Origin: Marsupella aquatica
Taxonomy: Eukaryota > Plantae > Marchantiophyta
Direction of reading: 5' to 3'
Length of the DNA: 64,000 nt
Assembly: GCA_973895155.1 (NCBI GenBank)
Contig: OZ316893.1
Location: 3,950,490-4,014,489 of the forward strand
Shown: positions 11,365-64,000 of the stretch, piece after piece
Layout of the letters: the number at the start of each line of letters is the position of its first letter
Position numbering within the stretch: the stretch's first letter is position 1
Position numbers and translations under genes: made by a program
The notes under the pieces: model-generated
What the model was told of the DNA's origin: nothing
The model's database searches: none
The model's input: the letters and a program-made list of their open reading frames with translations, nothing else

Positions 11365-11366
11365 TG

Positions 11367-11378
11367 TGGTATCAGAGC
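11367..11378 (+). other. Primer-binding site (initiator tRNA-Met)
   Basis: TGGTATCAGAGC, 2 nt after the 5' LTR end; the canonical plant iMet PBS. Confidence 0.93.
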
Positions 11379-17046: not shown

Positions 17047-17056
17047 GAAGGGGGGG
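17047..17056 (+). other. Polypurine tract
   Basis: GAAGGGGGGG just upstream of the 3' LTR. Confidence 0.85.
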
Positions 17057-17060
17057 TGCA

Positions 17061-34942: not shown

Positions 34943-35343
34943 AGTCCCAAAACTCAACTACCCTACCACTTACCTCCGGAACGGCCATCCATTGGAGACT
35001 AACTATGGGGAGACTAGACAATGGGCAATGAAGCATTGCATTAGTAAAGGCAATGCACTAAGCTGGTGGCGCACGCTAAGGACTTAGAGTAGCATTGGGA
35101 GGTGTTTGGGTATGGGAAGGGCCAAGCTTAGGTTGGACTGGTCAGACCCTTGCTTTGAGTTTTGAGAGCTTGAGTGGGAGCTCCTCTTGGGCCCAAAGCC
35201 AAAGAACTTTACTTTATGCGCAACAGACACTTTATGCGCAGGTCTATCCTTCAGGGACCCTCGACTGACAACTGGTTTCGAGACCTTGAGCATGAGCACT
35301 AGGTCAGCCTGATCATACTGGGCTAATTTACTTCACTTATGGG
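34943..35343 (+). mobile_element. Diverged, truncated LTR fragment of the same gypsy family
   Basis: Collinear with the first ~460 bp of the LTR at 9905/17061 (ggccatcc, atggggagact, ctaaggactt, gctttgagttttgag, gagctcctcttgggccca, catgagcact). It also begins AGTC. Confidence 0.8.
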
Positions 35344-39650: not shown

Positions 39651-41185
39651 GGCAAATCCAAGGTCTTGCAGATGACCTAAGCAGGCCTGTTGCTGGTACC
39701 GAGGACCTGCACTGCCCAACCAAATATTCACAGCCGGCGATTGTGCAACTGTCGTATCGCCTGTGGTAGCAAAACCTGACGTATTGGCGCACAACCCGGA
39801 CTATCATAATGTTCAATACGTCTTCACGTTTTTCGCGGATCTGTTTTTCTGCCCGCTTGTTTTGCACGTACATGGCCAGAAACGGTGAGCTTAGTTTATC
39901 TCGATCACCTAATGAATGTTCTTATTTTCGAAGCCTATTCGTGCGTCGCCCCTCAATTGTTTCACCTTGAAGCACAAATAGTTGGCGAAGGACTTCACAA
40001 GACTATGTCAAATAATCTCGAGCTTAGGTTATGGAAGGAGAGGCTAGCGTTTCGTCTTTGTACGTACTGCCATCTTGATGACAAGATTCCATCAAGTTGT
40101 TACAAGATAATTTTTAGGTAGGGTTCGAGTAATATAGATCTCATTTATCTATGGAAGCATCGAGTTCAATAATATCTTGGAATTTATGGGACCAGTTTAC
40201 GCCGCTGGCTTTCTAATAGGAATACTATGTCCTCCGCGGTTCAGCCAATGACAGGAACAGAACGTGAAGTATATTATCGCGAGCATTCAGCTGTCTCAGG
40301 TAAATTCTATGATCAATTCCTCTGAACGTACTGCATTTTGCTCATTTTTCAATCAACGCTAGTAAACGTTTCAAGGCAGGATTCCAAAAACTTGGCTTGT
40401 TTTTCTTGGGGCCCTTTCCACTCTTTGTCTCCCCTTCATTGGGTTGCTTATCATGTCTCCCCGTTCTTTCTGCCTTTTTGGGATCATGACTCGTTCGCTG
40501 TTTTCCTTTTTGGGATCATGTCTCCCGTTCGATGTTTTTTGCCTTTGTTCTAGTTTTGAACTACCTCAATGCAGATAATGATCGAAAATACCGTACACTT
40601 TCTTGCAAAGTCTTGTTTACTCCTTAGTTACATATTCATTGATAAACCTGCAGTAGAAAGCTGATAAATGCTTTCTGTACCTCCATTTCACCTCGTCATC
40701 ATTCTCTTTGCTTATTACAGAATGATGACGGTTGCTCTCAGTCCAAATGTACAAGTTGCCACTGACTGTCTTTTCTGCCTTCTTTTCAACTTTTGGACCA
40801 TTTTCTGCGGCTTCATTATCACCAAGCCGGTCAGCGGCCTATCTATCTGATTAAACTGCACAAGTGTCATCCGCATTTATATCATAAAAATGTTCGGTGT
40901 CCCATGTATATTGCCATGGTAATGGGTTAGCATGATAACACCTCAATGTTCAGAATTGAATCAGTTTCTTTGTTTTAACCGATCTGGACTGGAAACTTCT
41001 GCAGAGAATGCCGAAGTGGTGGTCGTGGTATTACTGGGCCTGTCCTAGCGTGGCACATGTGTGCTGCTGTCATGTCGCAATCTGGAGACCTGAACGATAA
41101 ATTAGTCCGCGTTGTTGGAGAACTGGAGCTGGAATCGATTCCCCATTATCTCTGCCAAGCCTTCGGTTTGTGTCACAGCTGGCTA
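39651..41185 (+). pseudogene. ABCG/PDR full-size transporter pseudogene, C-terminal TMD2 exons
   Basis: Exon remnants LADDLSRPVAGTEDLHCPTKYSQ...LW*QNLTYWR, AVQPMTGTEREVYYREHS, MMTVALSPNVQVA...FWTIFCGFIITKP and MPKWWSWYYWACP match PDR motifs, with stops and frameshifts. Confidence 0.85.
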
Positions 41186-44100: not shown

Positions 44101-46802
44101 ACTAATATGCTACGACAAGACCGAATTGTCTTCAAATAAGGCCGAGAACTTAATGAAGTCAACCCTAAATTTGCGTTCGACACAATTAAAGGACTTTCTA
44201 TCATTTTTGCAAACTCTGCAGTTGATCAGAACAGTGCTACTAGCTTTTCAGTTCCATGTTCGGATGTACATTTGTCACATTGGTCAGCGCGCCAGTAGGG
44301 AGACGTACCTATCGAGCGGATGAGTGATTCGTAATCTTGCAGTGGATTCTAAATATTAATCAGTCAGAAAGACGGACAGGAAGAACTAGAAGGAGTCTAA
44401 GGCTTATATGAAAATATAAACCTAGCTTCCTCAGACGATCCAGCGATTGGTGTGCAGATTTAATTGGATATGGGAACTCCAGACAAAAGCCATCGCGCTC
44501 TTCACACCGATGAGAGAGCTTGGCACGCTCCTGAATTGGATCCCACGTTAAGGCATGTCCCACTTCAAGCATCTTCTGAACGGGCGTCTGCAGGTGTGTT
44601 AAACCGGTGCCTCCCATGTTTGGCTCCTAGGTAATTGATATTGCCCTATCGTTGCATTTCTAGGACCAACTCATGGACGACGTGGTCTTGCATATGTCCA
44701 TCACATGGAATCTTAGAAAGTTAGAAAGAACTACAGTTTAGCGAGATGCTACTTCCCATATGTCGCAAGCCGTTTCCCCCACACAATTGTCACACAAGGG
44801 TTTCGTCTTATGATGAATTTTTGTGGGTTCTAACAATACAGTACTGTGAACGAGTGTTAATAAATGGTAGGTTTCAATTTTCCATTTCATAAGCTAAAGA
44901 TTGAACCGCTCGCTTTCCTTTATTAGTTAATTAACTTACTCACGTTTTAGGGATGGATGCTGTAACTTTCTGTGTAGTAGTCGCTGTGGCTCGGCGGCAC
45001 ATTGAGCCAAAGAGAATGCAATCTCTGTGGCTGAGAAAATGCCACAGGGAATGCCGCAGGAGGTCGCATCCTCTGTGGCTCGGCAGCAGATTTTCTTTGG
45101 CAAACAAGAAAATTCTCTGCAAATCTAAATTCTAAGCTTAGGCCGCATTCTATTTATTGAGTGATAACATCAACCCTGATACAGCCATCGTCCTCAGTTA
45201 ACACCGCAGTAAACATTTTGTCAATAGCATGTCTCTGGAAGAAGATACTGTATCGTAAGAAAGCCACTGTAGAAAAATGTTTAGGTTTCAGAATATCATT
45301 ATTATGGAAAATTTTACGGCACTCTTAATTTTGCTGTGCCGTGTTATACCCGTGCAACGCACCTCCCAACTCCATATGGAGCACCTTCATCGTCTTCCTA
45401 CTCCCAATAGTCCCAGCAACTCAGAACTTGAAGAAGTCGGACGGGCCTGTAGCTGCACCTCCCAAGCCACATTATTGTTCACGTCCACACATTCCCGTAC
45501 CCTTCATGTCCCCTGCGGCTCATAGGCACCCAAAACCCATATTACCAAAGGTAGGTTTCTCTCCAGGTTCATCAGGTGGAGCAGTCTTCCCAAGCATCCT
45601 GCTATGTCCTCCTACAACTACGAATGTATCTAGCTCATGGTGAGAGTCTGTACTACTATGTTCGTCGTATTCTTGGAAGCCCTCTTCAGTAAGCCAGGGA
45701 TATGCGTCAGCTTGTTCATCACTAAATAGTTAGATTTAAAGTAGTAAAACCCTCGAGAATTCTCTTCTTCATATTTAAAGTACAAATATTTATTACCGCA
45801 ACCTCAGAACCTGAATGGAAATTCGTTGGTGTGTCCATGGCGTGTCAATGATAGGGCTAGTTTCGACTTTCGCACTGGCAGTACGTGTACATATCTAGTA
45901 AGATTTTAATAGCTATTTCTAATTCAATCTTAGATTGGAAATTGAGTTGAAGGTTTAGTTTCTAATCGGAGTGTATTTCACGATCGAATCCTCGCCGGGT
46001 ACAAGTAATCCTGAAGGGAAAACAAGATACACCCTACGCAAAGCATTTTAGTCTGAATGGGGCTTTAATTTGTGTTACTGAGTGTATTCAAACGTTTCTG
46101 TTGTTCTTAATAGAACAAAGAAGTACTGTGTTGGGGTCTGAAATGACACCCACGATCATTTTCAAATAAAATTGGTATGAAGCACCACATTAGAGGTTTG
46201 CTGTGAAAAAGCCAGTTAGGTCTGGTGTACGTGCATATACTCCAGAGCTTGAGGGCATAACTTTCAGAAAGATCCATAAAACAAGAGCTCTGGCTCAAAT
46301 TTTCTTCTAGTTCACTTGTTAGTAGGTATAGTCTCACGTCGGTAAGATATGAGCGCGTAAAATATGCTCTGCACTTGAACCACTAACCTATTGACTGCGT
46401 TACAGTTTTCCTTTTATCTTAACGCACCCTAGACTCGAGGTTTAATGCTGTCGTGGTCTGCTCTAGCTAGTTTGCAGTTGTGGCTGCTTGTATCATCGAT
46501 TTTGGTGAGCTAGAGGGAAGGAGCCATCGAAGGTGTCCTCATGAGTCTTAGTAAACTGCAATTGTTTGAAAATGAGAACTTAAAGAATCAATGGCTACTC
46601 ACGCTTTCTTTTCTCGTGACCTTCGTCGGAAGAGCCAAAAAAATGGGCTTCATAATAATTATGCGCTTGGACGACTGGCATTTGTAACGTAAGCACGCTA
46701 AATATAATCAATCGCGAGTCATATCGCTTGATCCTTCGAGATTATAAAGTTGGGGCTAACTGAACGTCTCTGTGTCTGTGAATAAACACCAGCTTCTCAT
46801 GG

Positions 46803-49800
46803 ATGTGGGATCGCCCTCAATCTGCCGACCTTGCTGAGATTCCACAATCATCAACCAGTCACGTCCATTTCTCTCAAAGCCCAATTGGGAAATACCCTGC
46901 AAAGAGAGGTGAGGTACAAATTCGTCAATATGTAGATAAAATGGAGTGGTATTCCAGGAACTTCAATAATTTAGTCCAATACCAAAGCATGACTATTGCA
47001 ATCAGTATTACAAAGATTAGAAATTTCAAAAGTTAAAGCCAGGGAAAACATGCATGAGATTCCTTCCACTGCTATGAAGAGGTTACTGTACAAATCCAGT
47101 GCTTTACAATTTTTCAATGAATGATAACGCCTTAGCATTACAGATCTTTACATCTTTTGGTACTAGGTGATATGTGTTCTGAACAGTCCTGAGTGGCCCA
47201 ATTGTGACCTTGTTCTGTCACGGATGACAGACGTCAGTCCCACCAACTCCAATGGTATTGTTGATGAAACTAGCATTCAGCACATCAAGAAGCAAAAGGA
47301 CGATAAAAGTTACAATCAAATCTCGAATCAAATGTCTCAAAACAACAGCTCCCGAAGTGCTACTCAGGTATTTCATATTCAATCTTCGAAAATGGAAGAT
47401 TGTTAGTTGCAAGATCCTGGAATCAGTTTCATTGAAGAAGACGGATTCAAAGTTCAATAAAATTAAAGAAACCTTCCTGACACATGTAGTGCTCTGAAAT
47501 GTTCTGCAATTTTTGATTTAGAACTTGATCATTTGATTGGGCGTAGTTTTGAGGTTGGTACTTTGTGTGCCTTTGAGGTTCAGCTTAATCACATAGACAA
47601 ACTGACGGTTATTGTACTCCCATCATGAAAACAAGAGGCTGCATATTGTGAATATGAACTAGCTTCTACTTTTGAATATAACCAACAATGAACGCAATTT
47701 CCGATCACACTTTTGACCGAATTGAAGAAAGCAAATTCCAAATTAGGTACAAATTATGAGACATTCCAGCACGACAGATGCAGAGTTTAAATCTTCTTCT
47801 TCGGATTCAGAACTCGTATGCCAAATTATCAACGTCGATAATTCTTCAGAATGTTCTTTACCTAAATAATATCCTATTCGTGAACTTGAAGAAGGAGAGG
47901 AAAAAGGAACATAAAATAAAGCTTAGATTGATTCCAATCTAGCAGTTAGTAGATCATTTATTTTAAGGTGGGGCTATAGAGAATGGGGGTTGAAGCGTTG
48001 AGGTCAGATGACTTTAGAAAGAGAGATCGGAAGATGACCAATAGCAAAAGTCGATGAAGGAAAGCCTTGAGACAAACCGAATGACTCTAGCTTTCATAGA
48101 TAGACTGTGAAATGTTTTATAGATTTCTATGACACATGTACTGATCTAAAGTCTGTTGGCTTCGGACACTAACAGTAAGTTGCAATGAGTGCGTAGGACG
48201 TCGAAAGAGAAGATTCAGAAACGTCATCTGGCTTGGAGGATCCACAAGTTGATACATCGCTAGAGGTCTACCCATACGACGCTGAAAGAATTTCGATTCA
48301 GAGTCGAATCTTTGGGAAATCAAACGATCTTTCCATCGAACCCGAATACTTTAGTCTCACACGCTACTTGGCTAGAGTATACACGGTAAGATTGTAAACC
48401 GCCACTGACAGTATACCATAGAGACTTCAACATGCATTCTACCCAAGTGATACTTACTACAGGCTAAGGAATGGCAATATATGTTCAATTGAATTGAGCT
48501 GCATTATTTCAAATAACTCAAATCACCTGATCGGATGCACGACTTGGTGGCATGACAGTCATATATAGTCAGTTGTGTCTCTCTTCTTATGGTAGAGAAA
48601 TTTTGGGTTGAGACTGTCAAACATGTTTGCCTTGCAGGCCCTTGAAAAGCGACAGTTTTACCATATGTGGGAGGAATGTCCGCCCTCACACGCACCGTCA
48701 ATACAAGAATTGCAGCAGTGCTGTTGGAGAGAGCTAGAGGTCCAATTGATGGGACAAAATGTAGACAGGAAAACCTTGCACGTCAACTTTCGAAGAGTAC
48801 AAACCAGACCTTGCTTTGCAGTACAGTTGTCTGACTAGCACAAACTAAAGTTTCTGCTAGGTTTATATATAGAATGAGGAAAGCATTCCACAAACTAAGT
48901 GGTACTTGTGATTTCTAATAAAATCTCATTGACAGTACTGAAATCGGACTTGGCCTGTTGCTGTTTAAGGAAGTGACGGCAGCGTCATTCGAGTTAGTGG
49001 AGAACCGTAAGAGGAGGATGTACAAGTGGCCCTTCCACGTTAAAAGACTCTACCGGTGAGACCGGGGACACAACATCTAATTAAGTTGACTAGGCTTAGT
49101 TCTCAGTTCTAGCTCAAGTGCGGATGGTAGGTCGGGCGCGCTGGTGAAGGAAAATGAACCGATTCTCTATTTATTGAAACGAAAATGATTTTCTTTCCAA
49201 AAAATGGGGTCCTGTCTTGAGTTCCTTACAATATTGAGTTGAATAGATGTCCGGAGAGCTAGAAGTTGAATCTATTATAGAGCTGCATACTTATCACCAA
49301 AACAGCTGAGTAGCACTTTTATTGAAATGGGATTTGACCTGATTGACAAATAAACTGCCACTCAACCTATGAAAACTGACGTAGTTATTCTATCTCTGAA
49401 CAATCAGGAAATGGATTTCAGAACATGCTGGTGAAACTTGGGACACTCCATCCAGCAAAGCATGTCAGGATATGTCAACAGAAACAGGGGTGCCTGCAGA
49501 GAAGGTTTGTCTTACTGACGATTTCGTATCTAAACCTCCGTTCTTTGGTCCTTCAGGCATGAGTGTCTATATATGGAACACGGCCGAAATGTACGTAGGA
49601 CAACATTGCTTCGTATACATTATCTCAATCAATGCTGGTTACATAAACATTTAGTCAAACGTTGAAATTTTACGGAGAGGATACTCCCGGTCATACCGTT
49701 TGAATGAAAAAATGAATTAATGGATTCAAATTCGAGGTTTCCCAGACATGCATATTAATGCGTTAGAATTGCATGGTGTAAATATCTGATAAAACAAGTA

Positions 49801-51486
49801 GGTTCAGTTACTACGATGAAGAAAATCCGGGATGAGAAAATTTGGAGGGTTCTCGACAAACATTTACTATCTAAAGTCAATTCAACCTCAAAGAAAATCA
49901 AAAGTTTTGATATCATCCTAGCTTAGGCTACTGTTAGTGACTCATAAGAATGGTCGATAACGCTCCAATTGTTTGGATTCTTCTTATACTCATAACAACA
50001 ATACTTCATGACGTTCTACTACGTCTTGAAACAGTGATGAGAGTGAACTTTTCATAAATTTAAAATAGTTATAGATCTTCACAGACCTAATACTTTGTCT
50101 TTATGTTCAGATTTATCGACATTTGAAGGCGAAAAGAATTAAACTGAGGGCTACAGTAGAAAAGAAAGCGAAAGAACAAGGAAGAACAATTGAAAAGAAA
50201 CAGCGGATGTGTATTAACAAGCAAATCAACCCTACTCAGAGAGACTTGCTACGGTGGGTTCTGAATGCCCTAATCCGAGGGACTGCTTCCCTCGTATTTG
50301 CGCGTAATTTAGAACAAGTGTGAAAAGGATTTACGGCCAATATTGAAGTACTTTTCGGCACTACTACAAAAGTACAGAGCTGCCTAAGTCTAGGAAATTC
50401 CCCGCGTTAGCCATTGTGTATTCTCCAGTAATTATAGTGCTTGAAGTAAGCTGGCATTCGCGTCCAAAGGATTATTTAACTGTCCATGATGCTAGTGAGA
50501 TTCTCTTACACCTTCGGGATAAGGGATCGCGTTAATAAATATGTGCGATAAATTCTTGAAGTAGAGAAGCTAGACGTTATTTCGGGACAGACAACAGCAA
50601 AGCTTTCGGAAATTCCTTGATTTCCAGATTCTGGTAACTCATTAAGATTAAATTCCGTATCTGTTCATACAGGTCTTGGATTGCAGCTCACATAGAATAT
50701 CCCTTTCCAAATGAAGACGAGATGAAAGTCCTAGAAAAGGAAACGCGGTTAGAACCAGAGAAGGTTTGTTCTTCCTCCAACACCATGACGTCAATAAAAG
50801 TCACACCAAACCTGAGAGTTAGATAGAGTTAGATGTACTACATTATGATGACTTGCTCACTTTTTTATAGGGAGAGGTACTTAGATCGGTTGAATCATCA
50901 CTGAGACTTTCTAATATTAATTGGAATCAATTCAAGAGATGAAAAAAAAAAGTAGACGTTAGCGTCCTTGTCAGAGGATGACAGTTGCTCTTAACACATT
51001 GTTTTTCAGAGATTGAAAGCGCTGTCTATCCTCTGAACTCCTTGGATCCTTTTTTAGACTGACTCACCTCGAATTCTATTGTAGATCTGGAAATGGATTG
51101 AGTACTACATAAATATATCCAGATCAAAATTTCCACCGGGGAAACAGTTTAAACATCCAGGGGATGATACAAGGACCCCTTGGTTAAAGCCGGTAACGAG
51201 AAGGAAAACGGATGAAGCCTCAACACAATCAAAGGAAGATTCAGCTGCTGAGCTCGCTGCTAGAATATTGGCCAATAAACCTGGTATCGAGAAATTACAA
51301 AGAGAAATAGAAGATCGGAGAAGGGCAAGGAAAGAAAAAGAAGCTCAAGAAGCTATCCAGACGTCAGAGTTAACTAGAGCAGTGGAACAACAAGGCGAAA
51401 CCTACGAAAACTTGGAGCCTGAAGAATTAGATTTTGCGGCTGAACTGGAATCAGGGATAGAAGCTGATTTAGGGAATGTTAACTAG
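46803..51486 (+). CDS. Predicted multi-exon protein with two tandem divergent TALE-like homeodomains (~496 aa; 5' exons tentative)
   Basis: Phase-consistent GT-AG exons: 46803-46913, 47167-47367, 47747-47815 (tentative), 48197-48385, 48638-48739, 48970-49055, 49408-49504, 50111-50253, 50673-50763, 51085-51486. HD1: NRKRRMYKWPFHVKRLYR|KWISEHAGETWDTPSSKACQDMSTETGVPAEK|IYRHLKAKRIKL. HD2: KKQRMCINKQINPTQRDLLR|SWIAAHIEYPFPNEDEMKVLEKETRLEPEK|IWKWIEYYINISR. Acidic, coiled-coil-like C-terminus. Confidence 0.75.
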
Positions 51487-51761
51487 AATCAAGAAGACTA
51501 GGATTCCCTAAACTGCTAGAATTCGACCTTGAAATTGAATAGAAAACTCACTCACTAAAGAAATGCCCGAAGAAATGTATCCAACAGCTCTGGGAACTAG
51601 ATAAAACTTACAAATCGTAAAGATCTATAGAAGACGCTCTGGGAACTAGAGATAGAACTTACAAATCGTAAAGATCCATGGAAGACCACCCAACTACTTC
51701 AAGTCAGAAAAAGTTCAAACCAGAATCAAGCTCACGGGTCGAATCCTGGTATAGATTACTT

Positions 51762-52092
51762 TTTTGCCTTAAAAAAACAATTTGAAATTCATCCAAAAAG
51801 CCAGCATACAACGGTGGCCCACAAAAGGGGGTCGAGGGGGACCAAAGGTAGCGCGAGCTGCCCATGAGACCGGAGAGGCCGGCACCAGAAGAGAAGCAGG
51901 CCCAGCACGAAGGGAGCCAAACCAGAAATTTAACTACTACAGAAGGAGCGGCACACCCCAAAGACCGGCCAGTGAGGAGTGCCGGCATGGCACCCAACAG
52001 TGGGTCAGTGATAAAGTAAAACAATATCAGTCTAGCCTGCAGTCAAGCTTCTACTCCTGACTCCAACACCTAAATCATGGGGGACGGGGTGT
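51762..52092 (-). mobile_element. 5'-truncated non-LTR retroelement 3' end (LINE/SINE tail)
   Basis: Flanked by 18-19-bp TSD ATCCTGGTATAGATTACT(T) at 51743-51761 and 52093-52111, with an oligo-T on + (A tail on -). The paralog at ~59690-59710 has a single, empty site. Confidence 0.85.
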
Positions 52093-52397
52093 ATCCTGGT
52101 ATAGATTACTTGCTATGTCGTCTTTGCAGATACATTCTATCAAGAATTGCCGATGACTCCAGCCGAGAACCAACATGGAGGGTTCCTCATGGCGAATCAC
52201 GGAGGACATCACATTCAAAGCTAAAGCGTGGACAGACATCTGGACTTCTAGACAAAATGGAAGTCTGTCAAACTTCAAAAAAATTGTAAAACTTTTGAAT
52301 ATAAAAATTATTTCTTTAATACTTTAGAACTTTAAAACATTTGTTTCCTATCACTCAAGTATGTTTGGATTCTATTCTATGATGCGGTGGTCAATAT

Positions 52398-53262
52398 TGT
52401 TGGAAAAATCATCACAAAACAATCATGAGAACAATAAACAAACACGCACACACCAAGAGATACTTGGTTCACCTCGTAAAGGCTACGTTCACGGGAATAC
52501 ACAAGAGCTTTACTAAGTTTTGGCCACCATGGCCACACAAAGCTTTCTTACACAAGCTCTCCTCATAGAACCTAGTTAGCTCCCTCAACAATGAGCATGA
52601 GTCTCCAAAAAGTGCTCTCCTTAGCCTCTCTATAATTATGCTAGATGCAAGAGTTGCGGCCAATCACTATTAACATCCTAATGGCGGTTTAACCTAAGTA
52701 ACATGTGATTAACCCAAGACTTGAGTTAACCTTAACAACCTCCCCTTGACTTGATCTGGTCGAGGGGTATGTAACATCTGCTAACCATATGAATACTCAA
52801 CAGAAATTTCTAGAAATAAACCTAAACCAAGTCCTCCTTATATAGCAAGGTTAACTATTAATAATTAAGTCGTAGCCATACAAGATAGAGTAATCAAAGA
52901 CAAAGTTACAATAATGCTAGGGCACTCTACTTGTGCTCCAAATTAAAGACAAAACCTTTAATATTGCACGATGTCTTGCGAAACTCTCCAATGGAAGTAC
53001 TTTGGTAAATGCATTAGCTGGATTGAGTTTACTGTCAATCTTGACTAGCTCAATTAACTTATTAGACGTCGTTTGCCTAATAAAATGATAAGTGATGTTG
53101 ATGTGTTTTACTCTACAATTCATCATTTGATTCACAACTAGATGTAAGGCACTCTGGCTATCACACTTGAGATGTACCACCTCATGTGTCAATCCCATCT
53201 CAAGTGACCAACCCATCCAACCAAATTAATTCCTTTGCAGCTTCTGTCGCCATCACCTACTC
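52398..53262 (-). mobile_element. Ty1/copia 3' remnant: RNase H end, PPT and 3' LTR
   Basis: ATEAAKELIWL...CDSQSALHL...RVKHINITYHFIR...NPANAFTKVL. PPT AAGGGGAGG (revcomp of ~52739-52747). LTR TGTT...AACA at 52737-52398. Confidence 0.88.
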
Positions 53263-53370
53263 ACGGGCCTACTCAGGAGTTTATCTTAGTTAGGGAGCCT
53301 AAAAAAACCTACTCGAAGGGTTATTCTCAATGTGAAATGTCCTTCTAAAGGTAGCTTCTAAAGGTATCTA

Positions 53371-54054
53371 CAGTGTTCACCGTAATTAGTGTTATGCCAA
53401 AATTAATGTTATGTCCAAATTAGTGTTAGTTACACTAATTTATGTGAACTTGATCCGGAAGCAAAAGTAACACTAATTGGTGTTGGTTTTCAAATTATAT
53501 TTTTTGAGATTTTGTTTAAATGTTTTGTTCAACATATTACTATAGAGCATCTGGAGGTGAAAGCTCTGTAGTCGTGGAGGGCTAGAGTATCTACTAGGAA
53601 GGGCTCCACAACATTTACTCCCATGTGCAATCATTTTTGGAGGTTTTATTTCACGTCCAACAGTAGAGCATTTTGAGGTGCGGAGAGCTCTATAGTCGTG
53701 GAGGCTAAAACATCTATTAGGGATCTTTTTCTATCAGCTCACATTGAACTACAGCTCACATTGTGCTCATCAATCAATGTTAGCCTGAATGAGAGGGACA
53801 ACTGAATACCCTAACAAAGAGCTTGTGACGAGAGGCCTGGTTGCCAAGAACACTTGAAGTTCTGTCATTCTGGAGCCACGCAATTTACAAGTCGAAAAGT
53901 CACATGAATGTGTTACGTATGTAACACTATTTGGTATGCGCGAAATTAGTTTTTGCTCAGAATTAGTGTGACTAACACATTCGCAAATAGACCTTGAAAA
54001 TGGGCGCTCTCGAATTAGGGAAAGTGTTACTCACACTAATTACGGTAAATAGTG
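53371..54054. mobile_element. Non-autonomous pogo/Tc1-mariner MITE
   Basis: 22-bp TIR CAGTGTTCACCGTAATTAGTGT vs revcomp CACTATTTACCGTAATTAGTGT (19/22), TA on both flanks, repeated aattagtg subterminal motifs. An empty-site-like paralog lies at ~54178-54210. Confidence 0.8.
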
Positions 54055-54875
54055 TAGTTACATTTTCTGTGCAGTATGAATTGACTGATGACTTAGGCAG
54101 CCCATGGGGTATATACATGAACTGACTAATGACTTCAGGCAGTCCATGTGGGTGGCCGACTAAATCCCTCTCTCAGTGTCCTTCTAAAGGCAACTAGTCA
54201 CTTTTTCTTTCCACTCAGTGTGAACTGGCTAATGACTTTAGACAGTAGGCTAATGACTTTAGACAGTCAATGGGGATGGCAGGACAAAAACCCTCGTCCG
54301 TCCAGGACTTATTTTAATTTTTATAATTTTGGATTTCACTTGGTTCCTATTTGTGAATTTCATTTTGATAAATGCAACGCTTGCTTTGTGTCATGATTCG
54401 GTTCACAAATAACTTGCAGACTGCATGGAGATCCTCTGAATTTTGGCTTTCAACAAACAAACAAAAAGGTTGATCAGAAGATCTAAAATTATGCATGCAT
54501 CTCTCAATGACAAACTTTCAGAACCAAGGCGTGGTAAGATGAGATACGCATTGCTGCCGTAGATAACAAAATTGAGAGGAATTCTCTACCCAAATTAACC
54601 TCAGTCTCTTCTCTACAAGCCCAAACAAATACAGGGAATAGGTTAAACCAGTACACTGTTTTACCTTAGTTAGCTTAACTGACACTATTTATGTGACTCA
54701 CAAAAGTTTCAATCCCACTAGAAATAGTCTTACTAACACAATAGCTTTTAATATTTCACAGAATCAGAAACCATATCGTGCCAAAGTTTACATAACTTTG
54801 GCGTGCTGTGAAGCTCTATGTTATATTAGCTAGGGCAGCCACCTCCTTACCCACATGCATCAAAATTATTAGAAA

Positions 54876-54903
54876 CTAGCACTATGCCCGTGGGTTGCAC
54901 CAA
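54876..54903 (-). mobile_element. Probable Helitron 3' terminus
   Basis: Minus strand reads ...GGTGCAACCCACGGGCATAGTGCTAG|T, resembling the plant Helitron hairpin + CTAG end followed by T. The stem is degenerate. Confidence 0.5.
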
Positions 54904-55342
54904 AGATGTTGAACTGAGAAATATGTCCATGAGAGAGAAAAATGTAAGATTATAAAGATGTTGACGAGTCTAGAAAACATGTAGGATGAGAGAGAAAAAT
55001 GTAAGATTAAAAAGATGTTGATGAGTCTAGAAAACATGTAGGGCAGCCACGTCCTCACCCACAGGCACAGAAATTATGAAGTCAGAGCAAATGGTCTACA
55101 TCTCCTAAGCTCTCCTTCATACCCAAAATAAGATACCCTACCTTGGCTAACTTACTCTTGGATACCAATAGTAGATCCATGGTGACGTCACACTATTTGT
55201 CTCCACTTCCTCCATGCAAACAAAAGCCACGTCTGTATTTTCTACTTTCTTATGCTGTACTACATATGTGGCCAAACATTACCACAATTGTTCCTGAATG
55301 CCCACTGCTATTATGGTGTATTCGAGCACAATGTTGAGTCAA

Positions 55343-55900
55343 TCAGAAACCATAGAAGAAATAAGCAGTGAAGTTGAGATTTGCATTGGCGACGTCAGTC
55401 AAGGAGTAAGTGGTGATGTCTGCCCACCCTCGAGCCAATCGAAAGTCAACAGTGCCCCCAACAATGGCTATTTCCCTCACAGGAGCCGCAATCCTGTCGA
55501 ACCCCTTGAACGTCAGTGTGCTGCCGGGAGTGAAGCCGCTCGCTTCGTTGAACTCCGCTGTAAACGAAAACTCGAGGCCCGCTATCATGGTGCTGTTCTG
55601 ATCAAAGATGTAGAAGCCTCGGCCTCTGCCGATCTCCAGGGACGATTCCTCCGGACCTACGGTCATGGAATCGTCGAACACGGACAAAGCTCCGAAAAAG
55701 CTCTGGTTGACGAGCGGGAGTGAAAATCCTGCCAACGGTGGCAAAATAATGAAAGCGCTCGGGTTCATGGCGGCGAGAAGACGATCGTGCAAGAAGAAGT
55801 TGAGGACCTTGCTTTGTTCCGCTACCGCAGCTGGGCTGCTCATGATTCCCAAAGCACAGGCTACAAGAGCTACTAGGGCCGCCATTGTCGATGTCCTCAT
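55343..55900 (-). CDS. Dirigent-family protein (185 aa, intronless, signal peptide)
   Basis: Hydrophobic N-terminus and dirigent motifs LNFFLHD, FGALSVFDDSMTVGPE, IGRGRGFY, GSTLTFKG, REIAIVGGTVDFRLARGWA. Confidence 0.92.
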   Translation of the reverse strand: MRTSTMAALVALVACALGIMSSPAAVAEQSKVLNFFLHDRLLAAMNPSAFIILPPLAGFSLPLVNQSFFGALSVFDDSMTVGPEESSLEIGRGRGFYIFDQNSTMIAGLEFSFTAEFNEASGFTPGSTLTFKGFDRIAAPVREIAIVGGTVDFRLARGWADITTYSLTDVANANLNFTAYFFYGF

Positions 55901-56544
55901 ATTGATAGAGCTCCGAGTCCTTCCGCTGTTTAGTACACTATCAAAGTTGAACCAAAAGAGGACGCTCCTCAAAATGAATGACGAGAAATATCATACATTT
56001 CGAATGGCATCTGCAGAGAGAGGTTCATGTCAAGACTTTGGCGGAGTGCACGTGGAAAGACCACAAATAGGGATCTCTGATCTGCAAATTAGGGACACCT
56101 CTTTCTCAAATAAGGATCATCATTAACATTTCAGACATCAGCTAGAGCCATACCTGGCCTCCTGGTCACGGGCGCGGTCTCTCGTTGTAACTGTAAACTA
56201 TGAATCGCCGAATTCGAGAGGACTCATCAACAAATATTTCTCTCTGCGGTTACGACGCCAACAACGGTCTTCCTATAATCGCCACCGCCATGTCGTTCGC
56301 TTGATATCTCTTGGACAAGTTCGCCTCTTCGAATACTCTTTATCTTTCCACAAATTGCTTGACGAGTAGAGCGCGAGTTGTCAGGTCCGCGGCAACTCCG
56401 TGAATGTAGTCAATAATACTAATGTACGGTAACTCGTACACAGATCGATCTGTCCGCCACGGATGTAGTTAATGACATTAATGTACTGTCGCTCGTCCAC
56501 AGTTTGATCTGTCGGCAAAGCAAAATTTATTGTGTCTGGAGTCT

Positions 56545-58140
56545 GTGAAGGAGGCGGAGGCCTGCTCCACGATTTTGAGGCTGAGATGGTTCGTTGGATG
56601 GACTTCATCCTGCAGTCCAGGTGGACTGGTGAAGGAGACAAATGCTCCAAGCTTTTCGTCAGAAGCTTCAAAGGACTGGCCATGAAGGACTGGTAGGTTA
56701 GGGAGACAAATGCTCCAAGCTTTTCGTCAGAAGCTTCAAAGGACTGGCCATGAAGGACTGGTAGGTTAGGGAGACAAATGCTCCAAGCTTTTCGTCAGAA
56801 GCTTCAAAGGACTGGCCATGGATAAGGAGATCACTGAATTACTTATCCCAGAGGAACGAATCGTCAGTGGGTGGGAGGATTTGGCCACCAGGGCTACCAA
56901 AGTCTTCCAAGGCATTCTCGGTCAATCAGCTGGTTTCCACTGGGAACAGTGTCAAAAGTTGGATTTGACCACCACGGCTACCAAAGCCTTCCAAGGCATT
57001 CTCGGTCAATCAGGTGGTTTCCTCTGGGAACAGGTGTCAAAAGTTTTCGAGCTGCAAACCAAGCGCATCACAATGGAGGACAGAGATCTGCTGAATGCAT
57101 CCCTCACGGTGGACTTGGGAAAGCAGCAGTGCTAGACAACAATAAGTGCCCCGGCCCCGATGGAGTCCCTGTTGAATTCTTCGTGGCACATTGGCACACG
57201 GTGGGTCCTTCTCGTCATAGAGCTCTGCTGCAAGGAATGGCCGATGGGACATTCTCTCCAGAAAGCACCCGGGGCCTAATTGTCCTACTACCAAAGAAGG
57301 ACTACCAAAGGTCCTTAACCAAGAAGCACCCCATCACCCTCTTAAATGTGGCTCATTCCGGTCTTGCAGCAGTTCATCTCGCTCCAACAATTCGCCTTTC
57401 TCCCGGGAAGAAATATCCTCATTCAAATTCAATTGGTTTTTCTGAGGCAAAAACAAAAACAAAAAACCTCATTCTGTTGTGCTCCTCAATGAGAGGCCTC
57501 CAGGTTGGAATATATTCTGCTGAAACTGGATGTCATCAAGGCCTTTGACAAGCTTGATTGGCATTTTCTGATGACTCTTATGGAAAAGGCCGGGTTCAAT
57601 GTGCTGATCATGCAGTTTTTTATGGCAACGCACGCATCTGCATCTTTGGCTGTGCTGATCAATAGAAGAATGGTTTCACCATTCAGTCTAGCTCATCGGT
57701 GAGGGAGGGATACCCTCTGTCTCCTCATTGCGATTGATTCCCTTAGCATAATTCTTACCAGGGAGGTCAGTCGGGGTTCGATTCAAGATGTGCACATTCA
57801 ACACTTGGCGGTACACAACATACACAATTTGTTTGCAGTCAGAGGATATTGCTTTGCTCATTCGTGCTATGATTCACTTGTCGATAGATGTAAGCTGGTT
57901 TTGACCTAATTGGCATGGTTTCCGGCCTCTTTGGTGCCTGGGAGAAAAACCAAGGCTGCATTTAATTTCACGCACAGGATTCGAATTGAGTTTAGACATC
58001 TACCCTGGAAGTGGGAGGATGAGCACAATGCCACTAAGCTTCTTGGGATCCCTCTTGCTCGGCACATTTCGGAACATCAAATGGTCCAAACCTTATCCGA
58101 TAAACTTGAGTCAAGACTTGACAGGGTCCGTAAGACCTCG
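56545..58140 (+). mobile_element. Degenerate L1-clade LINE ORF2 fragment (reverse transcriptase)
   Basis: RWTGEGDKCSKLF, NKCPGPDGVPVEFF, GLIVLLPKK...PITLLNV, LKLDVIKAFDKLDW...LMEKAGF. Multiple frameshifts, plus an internal 67-bp triplication at ~56622-56820 and a 75-bp duplication. Confidence 0.88.
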
Positions 58141-58148
58141 GATATTTG

Positions 58149-59825
58149 GAGAGCTACTTAGATCGGTTGAATCCTCACTGAGACTCTCTAATATTTATCG
58201 GAATCAATTCAAGAGAGCGAAAAAAAACCTGGACTTTAGCGTCCTTGTCAGAGGATGATAGCTGCTCTTAAGATATTGTTCTTTAGAGATTGAAAGCGCT
58301 GTCTATCCTCTGAACTCCTCGGATCCTTTTTTAGACTGACTCACCTCGGATTCTTTTCAAGATCTGGAAATGGATTGATATATATCCAGATCAAAATTTC
58401 CACCGGGGAAACAGTTTAAACATCCAGGGGATGATACAAGGACCCTTGGTTAAAGCCAGTAACGAAAAGGAAAACGGAAGCAGCCTCAACACAATCAATA
58501 ATATATTCAGGTGCTGACCTCGCTGATAGAATATTGGCCAATAGACCTGGTATCGAGAATTGCAAAGAGAATAGAAGATCGGAGAAGGGCAAGGTAAGAA
58601 AATGAAGCTCAAGAAGCTATCCAGACGTCAGAGTTAACTAGAGCAGTGGAACAACAAGACGAAAACTGCGACAACTTGGAGCCTGAAGAATTAGATTTTG
58701 CGGCTGAGCTGGAATCAAAGATAGATGCTGATTTAGAGAATGAAGAGTATAATCAAGACGACTAGGATTTCCCAAAACAGCTAGAATTCGACCTTGAAAT
58801 TGAATAGAAAACTCACTCACTAAAGAAATGCCCGAAGAAATGTAGAGTGAGAAGTGGAAGATCAGAAGAATCAAACGAGAGATACTGCACTAAACAGGTG
58901 CATTGAGTCGCAAGTATATACTTTGGCTACATATCTAACTTTCAATTTGGTACAGTTTAGATTTATGCAATTCTCTTAAGAAGCCAGATCAAACCATAAT
59001 TTTTCTGATCGAAGAATAAGGTGCATCAAAAGATAGTTGAAGATTATGTATGCACACAACAGGCTGTAGTTCGAAATTAATTCATTTCACATTGCCGACA
59101 AACAAATCAGATCCGAATTTAGATTCGCAACTAATCGACTCTTCTAGATGTTCAGATGCATCCGTGTTCAGACGCACGTGCAGACATCTATGCATCCCTG
59201 CTCTGTACAGAGCCAGCTTACCAACCACTGCAACAACTACAAACAACAGGCAAGAACAACGTCCAATCAAGACTGGGGCTCAGATTGGCTACGATAAATT
59301 GCTGAAAGGAGTCTTCCCCTTGAAGACAAACACGAAAAATTGAAAATTGTTTATAGCAGTATTGCTATTTTTTAATCTCCCATCTAATTGCTATCTATTC
59401 ATAATTATGGATCTAACGGTGATAAAGTGGTTCTCAACCCCAAACTCCTCAATTTCAGGAATGCCAACTTAGCGCGCAGAGTCACGCTGTCCAATGCACG
59501 GTCACGACCTTTCGCTTATATAAGTTTGTGGAAAGGTTGCGATGAGATAGTCAAGGGATCCCAATGCAAATGGACCCAACAGCTCTGGGAACTAAAGATA
59601 GAACTGACAAATCGTAAAGATCTATACAAGACCACCCAACTACGTCAAGTCAGAAAAACATTCAAACCAAAATCAATCTCGCGGGTGGAATCCTGGTATA
59701 GATTGCTTGCTATGTCGTCTTTGCAGATACATTCCATCAAGAATTGCCGACGACTCCAGCCGAGAACCAACATGGACCTTGGAGGGTTTCCTCGTGGCGA
59801 ATCACGGAGGACATCACATTCAAGC
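58149..59825 (+). repeat. Segmental duplicate of 50870-52222, including a frameshifted copy of the last exon of the double-homeodomain gene
   Basis: 58149-58843 matches 50870-51580 and 59576-59825 matches 51582-52222. The exon copy at 58362-58760 carries indels. Confidence 0.9.
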
Positions 59826-61082
59826 CAAATACCGTCAAGAAATTCCTGGTTGTAACTTTAATAACATGTCAGTGAAGCCAATGGCGTCAAGATTCATATC
59901 AGGACGACGGAGACCGTGATCGAAAGAATCTTCAACTGGAGGGCTTTGGTTCTTTGAGATGTAATTGTATATAGTCATTGGAAGAAATTTCGAGAAAGCA
60001 CCTAATAGGGAATCTCTGTTTGGCTCATACCTTTTAATTTGGCAAATGGAAAATTTTCTTATATTCCTCAGTTTCAAAAAGGGCTGGTAGGGGCTCTAGT
60101 TCATAGCAGAATCAACATTTGAGGTAAGATCTCCACTTGTTTCGTCTCCCTGGTTAGCAAGTTTTTTCGGATCTGCAGGTGTGATCGATCTTCAACAAAA
60201 TATTATAACCATTCTTAAAGGTCACATTTATTTCATAACGATACTTATCATTTTGAACAAAAGATTGTGACCAAGTTACGTCAACTAAGATTCCCTCTGG
60301 AATTTGAGAGTTAGTGGTCGCCTTTTGCGTGGAAGAAAAATCACGATGATTTCAGGTTTCGCTAGAAGTATAGGGACAAAGTTCTCTGTTTAGCAGCATC
60401 CAGTACGGCCAAACTTTGGTACCACCCTGACACAATATATATGACCAGAGTTCAATTTCAAGTCTCAGTGGCAGACAAACTGTTTATTCTGTCCTCTTCA
60501 GATTGAGCATGCCTAGCCGCAAATTCTATGAAATGGCTTCAGACTCTAAAACTAACACAACTATCAAGAGGCTTCGAAACGTGTCCCACTTCAAGCTCTT
60601 TCCCATTAGGACGGACAGAGGGATTGTGAGTTTGGCTCGGCATAACACGTAGCTGTGAATAAGAAACTTAAGGTTATGTAGATATTGTCCATCGTCTTCT
60701 TGTGGTTGATTGGCAACATTAGTTTCGTCGAGAGGAATCTGGAATCCAAGAAAATGATAGAGACAGCTATGAAGTTTTCAGAGACAAAAAGAGCACATAA
60801 TTGTACATTAGCTCTAATAGAACGGAAGAATTGCACCATTTAATAAGGCTTTTTGTCTAGGCCCCTAGCCCTCGTTTTAATTGTAACAAAATGAAGGAAA
60901 TAGATGAATTCTCGATAGCTCTAAGTCATGTTGCGCTTAATTTCATGACTAGTCCCCATATGTGGACTTCGTCATAAAACAAACATCTTGTTTCGTATGG
61001 GGAATGGATTATCTCACCTCGTTCCGACGCTTATGAGTATCCATAAACAGCAGAACAATAAAAAGCAGATCATTCCCTGTAG

Positions 61083-63080
61083 CTCGTGCTCGAGCTCGTG
61101 ACCAACATGGGAGATCCAAGATTCTGTGGAAAGACTGTTCTTCCCCCTCATTTTCAGCACTTATAACTCAGCCATCTCCAAATTGTACCCTTAGTGCGCC
61201 TCGACCAGTTGGGAAAGAAAAATCGTCAGTTTTCTCCAGGGTTAGAGAGACACACATGGATGCCAGAGGTGCCCAAGAAGGACAAGGACCAAATGACGAT
61301 CTATCTTCTCAATTGCCGAAGGTTTGGTTTCCAAACATTTGGTAAGTGCCGAAGTAGACGCAATGCTATTATCGAATAATTTCCTTCTTGTGCAAACTAA
61401 GACTGATCCGTCGGAACCGGTCCCTGTGCATATTCCCTGCAAGCACGTCGTTTTCATTACAAACCGGCTTTTGGAGGATCATGTGCTACAAGACTACAGT
61501 ACATATTGATGATGAAGTTTGCGCACGTCTAGCAAGGAATATTTATCTAACATTTTCCCCAATTATAGAGCAGTGTCAGAAATAATTCTCTAAATTTTAT
61601 TTTACTGCTTCAAAGCGATATATCACCGAAGAGTTGACGGAAAAAGGTGCTTGGATAATTCTTGAAATATGTACAGAAAGGAATATGTCACTGGAACCAA
61701 AAACGGTTTTTGAGAACCAAATCTGGGCAATCTCGGAAGTCACTAAGGTATTGAAAGGTGATAGATTTGCAACCATGAGCCCCAGTCTTTGAACGATCAA
61801 ATTCACTGCCAGTGAATCCATAATTTGGCTCCACCGAGTTTTAGAATTTGAAGCTCGACGTTGACAATCTGTGAAAACCAGGATTGAATCAACAAGTGCC
61901 TTCATGACTGCTCTGTTATCCCAAGAACCCTCATCTATCATTGAATTTTCATTAAAACAAGTTAACTAAGTATATTTAATAAACGAATATAATCTCATTG
62001 GATTTTTCAATATCTGTAGTGGCAATCCCGGCGATGTTATCAACCATGAGGTAGGCTCAGACCAACTCAATAACAAAAGTCAAGAGATCCGAGACAGACG
62101 CCGAAAGCTACGAAATAAACCTCTCAAAGACGATGCCGCTACGAACACACTGAGGTAAATTTTAAATATGACTAGTGTTCATCTTGATTCTCTTAAAATC
62201 TTGTCTGTTTAGCCTGTTGTATTTCCCACGAGTTTCTTCTACATGTCCTTTGGCCGGAATCAAATCGCAGGTGGGAAAACGGCTTGAATTGGATGATCTT
62301 AAACTGTGGACCACTGCCTTCGATTTCAGAATTGTTAGTAGTGTGGAATTCTTTACAAAATAGTACACCTTAATCTCTCTCGCAGGAGTTGGCTGGCTCA
62401 GAACCAAGAATACCCATATGCCACTGATGACGAAACAGCTGAATTAGTGACGAAAACGGGCCTGACAAGCTATCAGGTTTTTTTATGGATAATCAGTCGT
62501 CAATTGTGATTAACAAAAATTGTACAATTGTCCATTGTAACTCTTTTGGAACTTACTAGAGTACCTGATCAAGAGCGGGAATTAATTGAGGGCTGAAATA
62601 AACAAAACGTTGCATGTAAAGTGGCTACCTGAATACTATTAGGGAACCTTAAGCATGAATATATAGTTAGTTCACCTAGTCAAATGGGTTGTACATAATG
62701 ATCTATTCAACATTTGAAGTCGGCTATCAGAATGTCCGCTCTGAGCTTGTACATATCATAGGCCGGGTACAACAGCTAAAATTTTCAATGCTTTTACACA
62801 GGTCAAGAAAGGCTTGCAGAGACTGCGGGAGGACGAATTCAAGGGATCAGTAAAATATGTTCAAGGGACCTATAAATGGACGAGGGATGAGATACTCCGG
62901 ATGATTAGAAATACGGAACGACATTCAGTGGCGCCAATGAGTAGGTCTGTAGACGTAGTACTCAGTTCCTTTCTGTGTATCAAATCTAATTTTCGAATTG
63001 CTTTTCCTCGAAGCTCCTGTTCGCAGAACATGTTTAAAGTCAGAGCACTTTCAGACCTTTTGCTAGACTATACGTCGTAG
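61083..63080 (+). CDS. Second divergent TALE-like homeodomain gene (partial model; start and end uncertain)
   Basis: Phase-consistent exons 61083-61341, 62020-62154, 62386-62476 and 62802-(63080) give RRRKLRNKPLKDDAATNTLR|SWLAQNQEYPYATDDETAELVTKTGLTSYQ|VKKGLQRLRE. The two homeodomain intron positions match the gene at 46.8-51.5 kb. Confidence 0.7.
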
Positions 63081-64000
63081 TTCGTCTCTTCAAATTTATT
63101 GCTTCACATATCTGTGAATGCTGTTCGGGACTTCGAGGTGAAATGTACGCAACGAACCAACTCTCGAAGGTAGTCTTTTATGATCATATATGGTGGATAC
63201 ATATGCATAATTTTTGCTCCCTCCAAATTACTTCTGTAAGTTGGTCATAGGGGAACCCTGCAAGATCAATACAGGACCGACTTCATCTGATCTATCCAAT
63301 ATGGCTATATGTATGAGTCAAGAAATCACATCATGAGTTACTTTATAGACATCCATCCAAAACCCGGCAAATTTCCGAAGTGTGTGGATAGAAATATACC
63401 TTTCCTCGATGGAATCTCGTCACAACCAGTCAAAAGTATCTTTAAAGAAAAATGCACTGAAAGAGAAGCATGAATCAAGTTGCCTAATGTCACATTTCCA
63501 TACCTCATTGAATGACTTTGGCCACTTCCTCAAAAACATGTCTTACCCGGGATCTTACCTTCAGACTGCATTTTGCTCAGTGTCCTGAGCGCAGGCATAT
63601 TTCTTGGGAGCTCGTCGACCAAGGAATCAGCAAAATCAATAAAGTAAGGATACAATTTACTCTCACATAAGAATTCGCAATCAGGAGATTCCTCTGATCG
63701 ATGCTCAGATTTTGGGGTGAGAAATGGAAGAACTTGCTGACGCTTCGCTTTGATATCTATTCCCCTGTTGAAAATCTCCGGAATTTCGCCGTCCTCTGGA
63801 CTTTCTAGACATAGCAGGTTGTTTGCAACAAGATCTAGGATGACCCACAGACAGCTACAATTGTTCATTTTAATTCATTTCGAAATATTAATATTCAAAG
63901 AAACCTTAAACGTCGATTTTTACCATTGAATAGATTGAAATCCAAATTCTGCCATTATGACATTAGCATAGACAATAATTGGTTTGAAATGCTCTTCAGT

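What the first reader, a model, noticed from the sequence alone, without database searches (positions are those of the whole stretch)
46803..63080. Cluster of TALE-like genes whose recognition helices all lost WFxN
Seen: the three helix-3 sequences are IYRHLKAKRIKL, IWKWIEYYINISR and VKKGLQRLRED, against canonical VSNWFINARVRL. Helices 1-2 (xW, PY/PF, TGL/TGV/TRL) and both intron positions are kept. Both genes lie on the + strand about 10 kb apart. Established: W48, F49, N51 and R53 are near-invariant, and Asn51 makes the core adenine contact. Inference: a fast-evolving paralog family with altered or no DNA binding. They could be competitors or partners of KNOX/BELL heterodimers, or reproductive-incompatibility genes.
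Basis: partly seen in the sequence, partly recalled or inferred. Interest (0 to 1): 0.78.

Follow-up and report, generated by a model that had tools for sequence, protein, structure and literature searches.

The report
Liverwort gamete BELL genes, degenerate homeodomains
Two neighbouring genes carry three homeodomains that lack the usual DNA-reading motif; the larger gene has a liverwort counterpart and resembles the Marchantia BELL3 fertilisation regulator, whose upstream homeodomains are worn down the same way, so it is likely a fast-evolving partner of the egg's KNOX protein, not a new family.

Summary
The three helix-3 exons start at 50111, 51085 and 62802, and none has WFxN. The loss is partial: W48 survives in one domain, R53 in two, and only Asn51 is gone from all three. 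Gene 1 (46803-51486, nine exons, 469 aa, open frame) has two tandem TALE-type homeodomains. A Calypogeia fissa protein matches it at 155 of 264 aligned residues across the predicted HD-region splice junctions and also lacks WFxN, so this is conserved, not decay. Gene 1's pre-HD + HD + HD module aligns collinearly with Marchantia MpBELL3, best of 29 multi-homeodomain hits. Two of MpBELL3's three clear homeodomains also lack Asn51. This fits the published 'BELL-gamete' class (2-3 progressively degenerate homeodomains, sperm/egg expressed, KNOX1 partners), although a homeodomain tree did not resolve the placement. Two points were not found in print: gene 1 has no domain with Asn51, and its most degenerate domain is the better conserved (72% vs 54%). 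Gene 2 has one homeodomain in view, no ortholog, and an unresolved 3' end. No RNA or binding data. Verdict: new member of a known kind, modest interest.

The parts
46803..51486 (+). Gene 1, BELL-gamete-like TALE gene, 9 coding exons, 469 aa: 46803-46908, 47231-47367, 48197-48385, 48638-48796, 48970-49055, 49408-49504, 50111-50253, 50673-50763, 51085-51486
   Evidence: Open frame, 8 of 8 introns GT-AG. Exons 5-9 confirmed by C. fissa CAM6091827.1. Exon 4 supported by MpBELL3 alignment. Exons 1-3 and the start codon rest mainly on splice signals.
48638..48796 (+). Exon 4: Cys/His-containing pre-homeodomain segment (W-x-x-C ... QQCC), candidate partner-binding region
   Evidence: Aligns just upstream of the HD pair in both MpBELL3 modules. 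Pre-HD through the PFHV motif scores 56 against MpBELL3, reached by 0 of 1000 shuffles; the strict pre-HD part alone is reached by 12 of 1000. No Pfam hit.
48997..50158 (+). Gene 1 homeodomain 1 (exons 5-7; start approximate): two extra loop residues, helix 3 H48 L49 A51 R53
   Evidence: 39 of 49 residues identical to C. fissa before the 44/45 intron, 9 of 16 after. Three helices in the ortholog's AF2 model, low to medium confidence.
50204..51132 (+). Gene 1 homeodomain 2 (exons 7-9; start approximate): helix 3 W48 I49 Y51 I53
   Evidence: Pfam PF05920 E 6e-5 on exon 8. 24 of 47 and 11 of 16 identical to C. fissa. Ortholog model superposes on MEIS/TGIF/PBX homeodomains at 0.6-1.6 A over 43-55 columns, all E above 0.1.
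51232..51363 (+). Conserved predicted long helix / coiled coil in the last exon, followed by an acidic tail
   Evidence: 30 of 44 identical to C. fissa; also in unnamed P0016. Long helix 188-235 in the ortholog model.
58148..58844 (+). Broken duplicate of gene 1's last intron and last exon (90% identical; frameshifting deletions, changed acceptor), next to a LINE-like fragment
61256..63080 (+). Gene 2, TALE-type gene with one homeodomain in view: 61256-61341 (tentative), 62020-62154, 62386-62476, then 62802 to 62944 (donor) or 63080 (stop)
   Evidence: Open frame, GT-AG. Pfam PF05920 30.2 bits. Helix-1/2 exon has 0 listed differences in two diverged haplotypes against 10 substitutions and 2 insertions in the 231-nt intron before it. 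No ortholog found.

Best explanation
Gene 1 encodes a protein with two tandem TALE-type homeodomains that lack Asn51, and it is likely a single-module member of the liverwort BELL-gamete class that would be supplied by gametes and would act mainly by binding KNOX1 and carrying it into the zygote nucleus, with KNOX1 likely doing the base-specific DNA reading. Shown: the gene structure, the residue losses, the C. fissa ortholog, the collinear match to MpBELL3 residues 1796-1978, and the missing Asn51 in MpBELL3's two upstream homeodomains. Inferred from Marchantia: gamete expression, KNOX1 binding and the zygote role. Inferred from sequence alone: the degenerate domains, the Cys-containing pre-HD segment and the coiled coil serve as protein-contact or non-specific DNA-backbone surfaces. 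Gene 2 is likely a more diverged local paralog. Odds: BELL-gamete membership of gene 1 about 0.85; this mechanism, given membership, about 0.65.
For: Ortholog with identical exon joins and no WFxN in either domain. Module match to MpBELL3: pairwise E 3e-15 over 189 columns, score 168 against 139 for the next of 29 proteins. MpBELL3 was the only named land-plant protein among the 20 of 29 other hits looked up. PMC8476127 section 5: MpBELL2/3/4 carry 2-3 homeodomains, upstream ones progressively less conserved, with relatives throughout liverworts. Same paper, passages of section 8: full-length MpBELL4 moves MpKNOX1 to the nucleus in BiFC, while the short 3' MpBELL3 form does so poorly; that the N-terminal part holds the KNOX contact is my inference. 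The 44/45 intron is the ancestral TALE intron (PMC6219170 passages). Top Foldseek rows are double homeodomains and TALE domains.
Against: With the C. fissa query MpBELL3 ranked only 28th of 30 (E 7e-4). Single domains do not pick it first: HD1 tied third, HD2 fourth, gene 2 outside the top six. A 59-row homeodomain tree did not group the 9 liverwort domains (0% of 200 bootstrap trees; long branches) and held no canonical BELL, KNOX or MpBELL2/4/5 rows. No blastp match of the coiled coil to MpBELL3. Gene 1 stops about 20 codons earlier than the tail of P0016 suggests. Expression and binding are untested.
Confidence: 0.57

Rival explanations
1. Same family, but a decoy: without Asn51 the protein binds KNOX1 or other BELL-gamete proteins and holds them inactive, like the homeodomain-less MpKNOX1A/B are proposed to do.
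For: No domain in the window has Asn51. MpKNOX1A/B are proposed sequesterers (PMC8476127 Figure 6 legend). BELL2/3/4-like sequences without homeodomains exist in Riccia sorocarpa and Ricciocarpos (PMC11923412 passage).
Against: The C. fissa ortholog keeps Asn51 in HD2. Both domains are retained and conserved. No canonical paralog to antagonise was seen, but the genome was not available.
Confidence: 0.15
2. The tandem pair still binds DNA on its own with a changed specificity, the basic HD1 helix and the second domain acting together as in double-homeodomain proteins.
For: HD1 keeps R53 and has 6 K/R and no acidic residue in positions 45-60. HD1 and HD2 spacing is close in both species. Top Foldseek rows are DUX4 double homeodomains, E 0.12-0.19, rmsd about 15 A.
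Against: Position 51 differs between orthologs in HD2 (Tyr vs Asn), and HD1's helix 3 is less conserved (9 of 16) than its helices 1-2 (39 of 49). That is not the pattern expected of a base-reading helix (own knowledge).
Confidence: 0.15
3. The locus is decaying in this species: gene 1 and above all gene 2 are becoming pseudogenes.
For: Asn51 lost in HD2 relative to C. fissa. Earlier stop than P0016. A broken duplicate and transposon debris lie between the genes. Gene 2 has no ortholog and no detectable pre-HD segment. 2 of 3 listed differences in exon 62020-62154 change the amino acid.
Against: Gene 1 has an open 469-codon frame with 16 intact splice sites and 155 of 264 identities to the ortholog. 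Gene 2's helix-1/2 exon shows 0 listed differences in diverged haplotypes.
Confidence: 0.08
4. Genes 1 and 2 are halves of one long MpBELL3-like gene, or a normal WFxN domain lies further downstream beyond the window.
For: MpBELL3 has two modules about 700 residues apart. Gene 2 has an unused-looking donor at 62945, and the window ends at 64000.
Against: The C. fissa protein and P0016 both end in the same acidic tail as gene 1. Gene 2 lacks the pre-HD segment of MpBELL3's second module. No further homeodomain exon in 62945-64000. A downstream domain for gene 2 alone is not excluded.
Confidence: 0.05

Closest known systems
Marchantia polymorpha BELL-gamete class, MpBELL3 (BFI41821.1, Mp8g02970) and by description MpBELL2/MpBELL4
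   Same: Tandem TALE homeodomains with the upstream one more degenerate; shared K-x-PFHV and RKW motifs in the first domain; shared Cys-containing pre-HD segment; MpBELL3's two upstream domains lack Asn51.
   Different: 469 aa with one module against 2791 aa with two; no domain keeps Asn51, whereas MpBELL3's last domain has W-L-D-N; a C-terminal coiled coil and acidic tail with no blastp match in MpBELL3. MpBELL2 and MpBELL4 sequences were not obtained.
Calypogeia fissa CAM6091827.1 (unnamed protein product)
   Same: Ortholog over exons 5-9: 155 of 264 identical, both domains, coiled coil and tail.
   Different: The record starts at a Met just before HD1 (324 aa, no pre-HD part, possibly an incomplete model); HD2 has F48 and N51 where the window has W48 and Y51.
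Canonical land-plant BELL (MpBELL1/BEL1) and KNOX
   Same: TALE loop; 44/45 intron (in BELL, recalled).
   Different: No POX, KNOX or ELK Pfam hit on the exons tested or the ortholog; intron at 17(2/3), not the BELL-specific 24(2/3) (PMC6219170); two homeodomains; no WFxN.
HOPX (homeodomain-only protein)
   Same: A homeodomain fold that works as a cofactor without DNA binding (recalled). Nearest named clusters by features for HD2, score 0.78-0.79, below the tool's lead threshold.
   Different: Non-TALE, single domain, animal; an analogy only.

Membership tests
TALE homeodomain superclass | Three-residue loop extension with P-Y/F-P after the helix-1 Trp | tested here: met
   Gene 1 HD2 and gene 2 hit PF05920 from model position 1 without gaps in range; HD1 has two further residues and no Pfam hit, so it is met for 2 of 3 domains.
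TALE homeodomain superclass | Three-helix homeodomain fold | tested here: met
   Tested on the ortholog only: AF2 helices 99-111, 120-130, 134-144 (pLDDT 74-90) and 18-30, 41-51, 55-79 (lower); Atlas TM 0.78-0.85 to Homeobox_KN clusters for HD2.
TALE homeodomain superclass | W48-F49-x-N51-x-R53 recognition helix | tested here: not met
   0 of 3 window domains have Asn51; 1 of 3 W48; 2 of 3 R53.
BELL-gamete (MpBELL2/3/4) | Two or three tandem homeodomains in one protein | tested here: met
   Gene 1 has two. Gene 2 shows one within the window.
BELL-gamete (MpBELL2/3/4) | C-terminal homeodomain closest to the canonical form | tested here: met
   Only HD2 hits Pfam. Between species, however, HD1 is the more conserved, 72% vs 54%.
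BELL-gamete (MpBELL2/3/4) | Homology to MpBELL3 outside the homeodomain | tested here: met
   Collinear pre-HD + HD + HD match, best of 29; 0 of 1000 shuffles with the PFHV motif, 12 of 1000 without.
BELL-gamete (MpBELL2/3/4) | Phylogenetic placement in the BELL-gamete clade | tested here: inconclusive
   Tree of 59 domains, 63 columns: only the window/C. fissa pairs are supported (100/100, 99/94); no BELL1, BELL5 or KNOX rows.
BELL-gamete (MpBELL2/3/4) | Expression in antheridia, egg and young sporophyte | not testable with these tools
   No RNA run was listed.
BELL-gamete (MpBELL2/3/4) | Heterodimer with KNOX1 | not tested
Canonical land-plant BELL | SKY/BELL (POX) domain and 24(2/3) intron | tested here: not met
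   No POX hit on exons 3 and 4 scanned singly; the intron is at 17(2/3).
KNOX | KNOX1/KNOX2 (MEINOX) and ELK domains | tested here: not met
   No such Pfam hit on exons 3, 4, 6, 7, 8, 9 or the ortholog; exons 1, 2 and 5 were not scanned.

The most novel reading that the evidence does not exclude
Leafy liverworts keep a BELL-gamete factor whose first homeodomain has been converted into a strongly selected protein-contact module (39 of 49 residues fixed between species in helices 1-2 while helix 3 drifts). In this species the last DNA-reading asparagine has also gone, so the plant haploid-to-diploid switch would run with a BELL partner that reads no bases at all.
Probability: 0.3. Interest if true: 0.62.

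Novelty: new member of a known kind. Interest (0 to 1): 0.36.

Why it matters
KNOX/BELL pairing starts the diploid programme in Chlamydomonas and Marchantia, but what the BELL-gamete partner contributes is not settled, and no heterodimerisation domain was discerned in MpBELL2/3/4 (PMC8476127 section 5). A compact 469-aa natural version with a conserved pre-HD segment, a conserved degenerate domain and no Asn51 is a convenient test of whether the BELL side must read DNA or only escort KNOX1. The degenerate-domain architecture itself is already described.

Tried and rejected
No whole genome is held, so copy number, synteny and sex linkage were not tested. No RNA holder listed. Alternative WFxN exon: 17 W[FLIY]xN matches in six frames; the two on + after exon 6 are at 53484 (high-copy repeat, no AG in register, stop three codons later) and 61325 (upstream of gene 2's domain). 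A profile of the five domains over 2839 stop-to-stop peptides gave E under 0.05 only for the 8 peptides it was built from. Candidate second-domain exon of gene 2 at 63338-63428 rejected: weak splice sites, no profile hit, a 1-base insertion in one relative. A contig joint 62848 to 63289 lies at GATC sites on both sides and is taken as a probable library ligation artefact. Word-index searches: one search found only the query, nothing among 10 candidates. PDB sequence search gave only E 0.13 or worse (MEIS, TGIF). Foldseek had no match at E 0.001 or better. The wide structural search was filled by generic long helices. Atlas feature scores were all under 0.9. The tree did not resolve the family. 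Paper searches for Asn51 loss in this class found nothing (zero papers; one; none relevant). The word 'helix' does not occur in PMC8476127's main text, but its alignment figure and supplement 1 are images I could not read and may show these residues. No complex prediction was run.
Full report
Observation. Splice-site inspection gives a nine-exon gene 1 from 46803 to a stop at 51484-51486: 469 codons, open throughout, 8 of 8 introns GT-AG, 173-829 nt long. It carries two homeodomains in tandem. Gene 2 (about 61256-63080) shows one. All three domains have a phase-2 intron two codons before the helix-1 Trp and a phase-0 intron at position 44/45, the intron Joo et al. call most ancestral in TALE genes (PMC6219170, passages). 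The helix-1/2 exons of gene 1 HD2 and gene 2 are both 91 nt and hit Pfam Homeobox_KN at 23.2 and 30.2 bits (cut-off 24); 2 of 10 peptides scanned hit this family. Counting from the intron, HD1 is H48 L49 A51 R53, HD2 is W48 I49 Y51 I53 and gene 2 is G48 L49 R51 R53. The WFxN motif is gone, but only Asn51 is missing from all three. That these positions are near-invariant and that Asn51 contacts adenine is recalled, not tested.

Is it real? Contigs of one DNA run match 44500-51037 and 58815-64000 with no differences, at flat depth outside the repeats; this may be the source sample. No alternative exon supplies WFxN inside the window. The last exon of gene 1 found 1 protein among 1086 candidates, Calypogeia fissa CAM6091827.1. 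It aligns with exons 5-9 straight across the four predicted junctions, at 155 of 264 identities. Its helix 3s are also non-canonical: C48 L49 A51 R53 in HD1, and F48 I49 N51 I53 in HD2. So the window is likely from a leafy liverwort (inference), and the odd helices predate the split of the two species. HD2 descends from a W-I-x-N form of which each species kept a different half (inference). An AF2 model of the ortholog (single sequence, mean pLDDT 64.6) has two three-helix units and a long C-terminal helix. Foldseek's top rows are DUX4 double homeodomains and MEIS/TGIF, none at E 0.001 or better.

What family? A HMMER search of 1.84 billion representatives with the ortholog gave 30 proteins at E 0.001 or better, mostly multi-homeodomain TALE-like proteins. 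Names were looked up for 20 of the 29 non-self hits. The only named land-plant protein was MpBELL3 (BFI41821.1), ranked 28th. With the window's longer model, which adds the region upstream of HD1, MpBELL3 becomes the best of the 29 (score 168 vs 139) and aligns collinearly over residues 1796-1978 (pairwise E 3e-15). Shared features are a Cys-containing segment ending in QQCC, then K-x-PFHV and RKW in the first domain. The upstream segment including PFHV was matched by 0 of 1000 shuffles, the strict pre-domain part by 12 of 1000. MpBELL3's own domains read I48 F49 R51 R53, W48 L49 D51 R53 and W48 L49 N51 R53, so two of three lack Asn51. Dierschke et al. (PMC8476127; I read section 5, section 14, part 1 of the Discussion and passages) define BELL-gamete genes as having two or three homeodomains, the upstream ones progressively less conserved. 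They report relatives throughout liverworts, gamete expression, rapid evolution, and nuclear import of MpKNOX1 by full-length MpBELL4. Hisanaga et al. (PMC8478417, passages) place the pair at karyogamy. The Riccia paper (PMC11923412, passages) reports loss of these genes in one species and homeodomain-less relatives in two others. Against the assignment: single domains do not rank MpBELL3 first, and a 59-row tree supported only the window/C. fissa pairs and did not group the liverwort domains (all rows came from the hits, at most two domains per outgroup protein, P0006 and P0016 left out for lack of a domain). Membership therefore rests on module-level homology, architecture and taxon.

Gene 2. 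Its spliced helix 3 shares K46, a hydrophobic residue 49 and R-L-R with MpBELL3's first domain, and the exon has a donor 143 nt in, the length of gene 1's matching exon. This suggests a second domain downstream, but none lies before 64000. A read-through of the intron gives W48 and a stop after ten codons and cannot be excluded. In two diverged haplotypes the helix-1/2 exon has 0 listed differences, while the preceding 231-nt intron has 10 substitutions and 2 insertions. The exon before has 1 silent and 2 replacement changes. This is weak evidence of constraint. No pre-domain segment and no ortholog were found for it.

Mechanism. Most likely gene 1 is a gamete-supplied KNOX1 partner that escorts KNOX1 to the nucleus and leaves base reading to it; every step of this is inferred from Marchantia. 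The internal pattern fits. HD1 helices 1-2 are 39 of 49 identical between species against 9 of 16 for its helix 3, and a predicted coiled coil is 30 of 44 identical, while position 51 of HD2 is free to vary. Rivals are a decoy, a changed DNA specificity (HD1's helix is basic and keeps R53), and incipient decay (earlier stop than P0016, broken duplicate at 58148-58844).

Novelty. The class, its tandem degenerate domains and its fast evolution are published. I did not find in print the residue-level loss of Asn51, the pre-domain motif, the apparent two-module structure of MpBELL3 with a fourth, more degenerate domain before the last one, or the higher conservation of the degenerate domain (searches). 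The paper's alignment figure is an image I could not see and may show the residues. Verdict: new member of a known kind, interest 0.36.

Noticed in passing
P0028 (MpBELL3) residues about 1760-1985 and 2545-2760: MpBELL3 looks like two copies of one module (Cys-containing segment, degenerate homeodomain, homeodomain), implying a fourth, very degenerate domain at about 2640-2690; the paper counts at most three. Direct blastp of the two halves matched only the homeodomains.
   Followed up: partly
window 55343-55879 (-): Intronless dirigent-like protein gene between the two TALE genes (Pfam PF03018, E 4.5e-28); contigs suggest a further diverged copy elsewhere in the genome.
   Followed up: partly
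window 9905-18573: Ty3/Gypsy retrotransposon with a chromodomain integrase; terminal repeats 9905-11366 and 17061-18573 are 93% identical; pol is broken by stops and frameshifts. A weaker repeat match lies at 34976-35243.
   Followed up: partly
window 51661-54264 and 56600-58150: High-copy repeat (depth up to 100 times background or more) with a copia-like RNase H remnant at 52917-53225 (-), and a decayed LINE-like fragment; both family labels are recalled, with no Pfam hit.
   Followed up: no
window 58148-59823: The duplicate of gene 1's 3' end extends in pieces into the 3' flank (matches to 51573-51761 and 52085-52218). It and gene 1 share an in-frame stop where unnamed P0016 reads on.
   Followed up: partly
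window about 25800-30400 (+): Multi-exon gene with Cys-rich EGF-like segments resembling an exostosin-family glycosyltransferase (recalled; three exon peptides gave no Pfam hit).
   Followed up: no
window 8847-9182 (-): CENP-B/Tc5-type helix-turn-helix fragment (PF18107 E 1e-5), probably a transposase remnant.
   Followed up: no
window 37872-38189 (-), 39496-39921 (-), 42414-42875 (+), 45329-45643 (+): Open frames of 104-153 aa with no Pfam hit; the last is Pro-rich. Unexplained.
   Followed up: no
runs X3, X4, X5 on 61950-63450: Runs labelled as a second organism hold haplotypes 2-4% different from the window, and X4 holds both an identical and a diverged one, as a polyploid or mixed sample would.
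   Followed up: no
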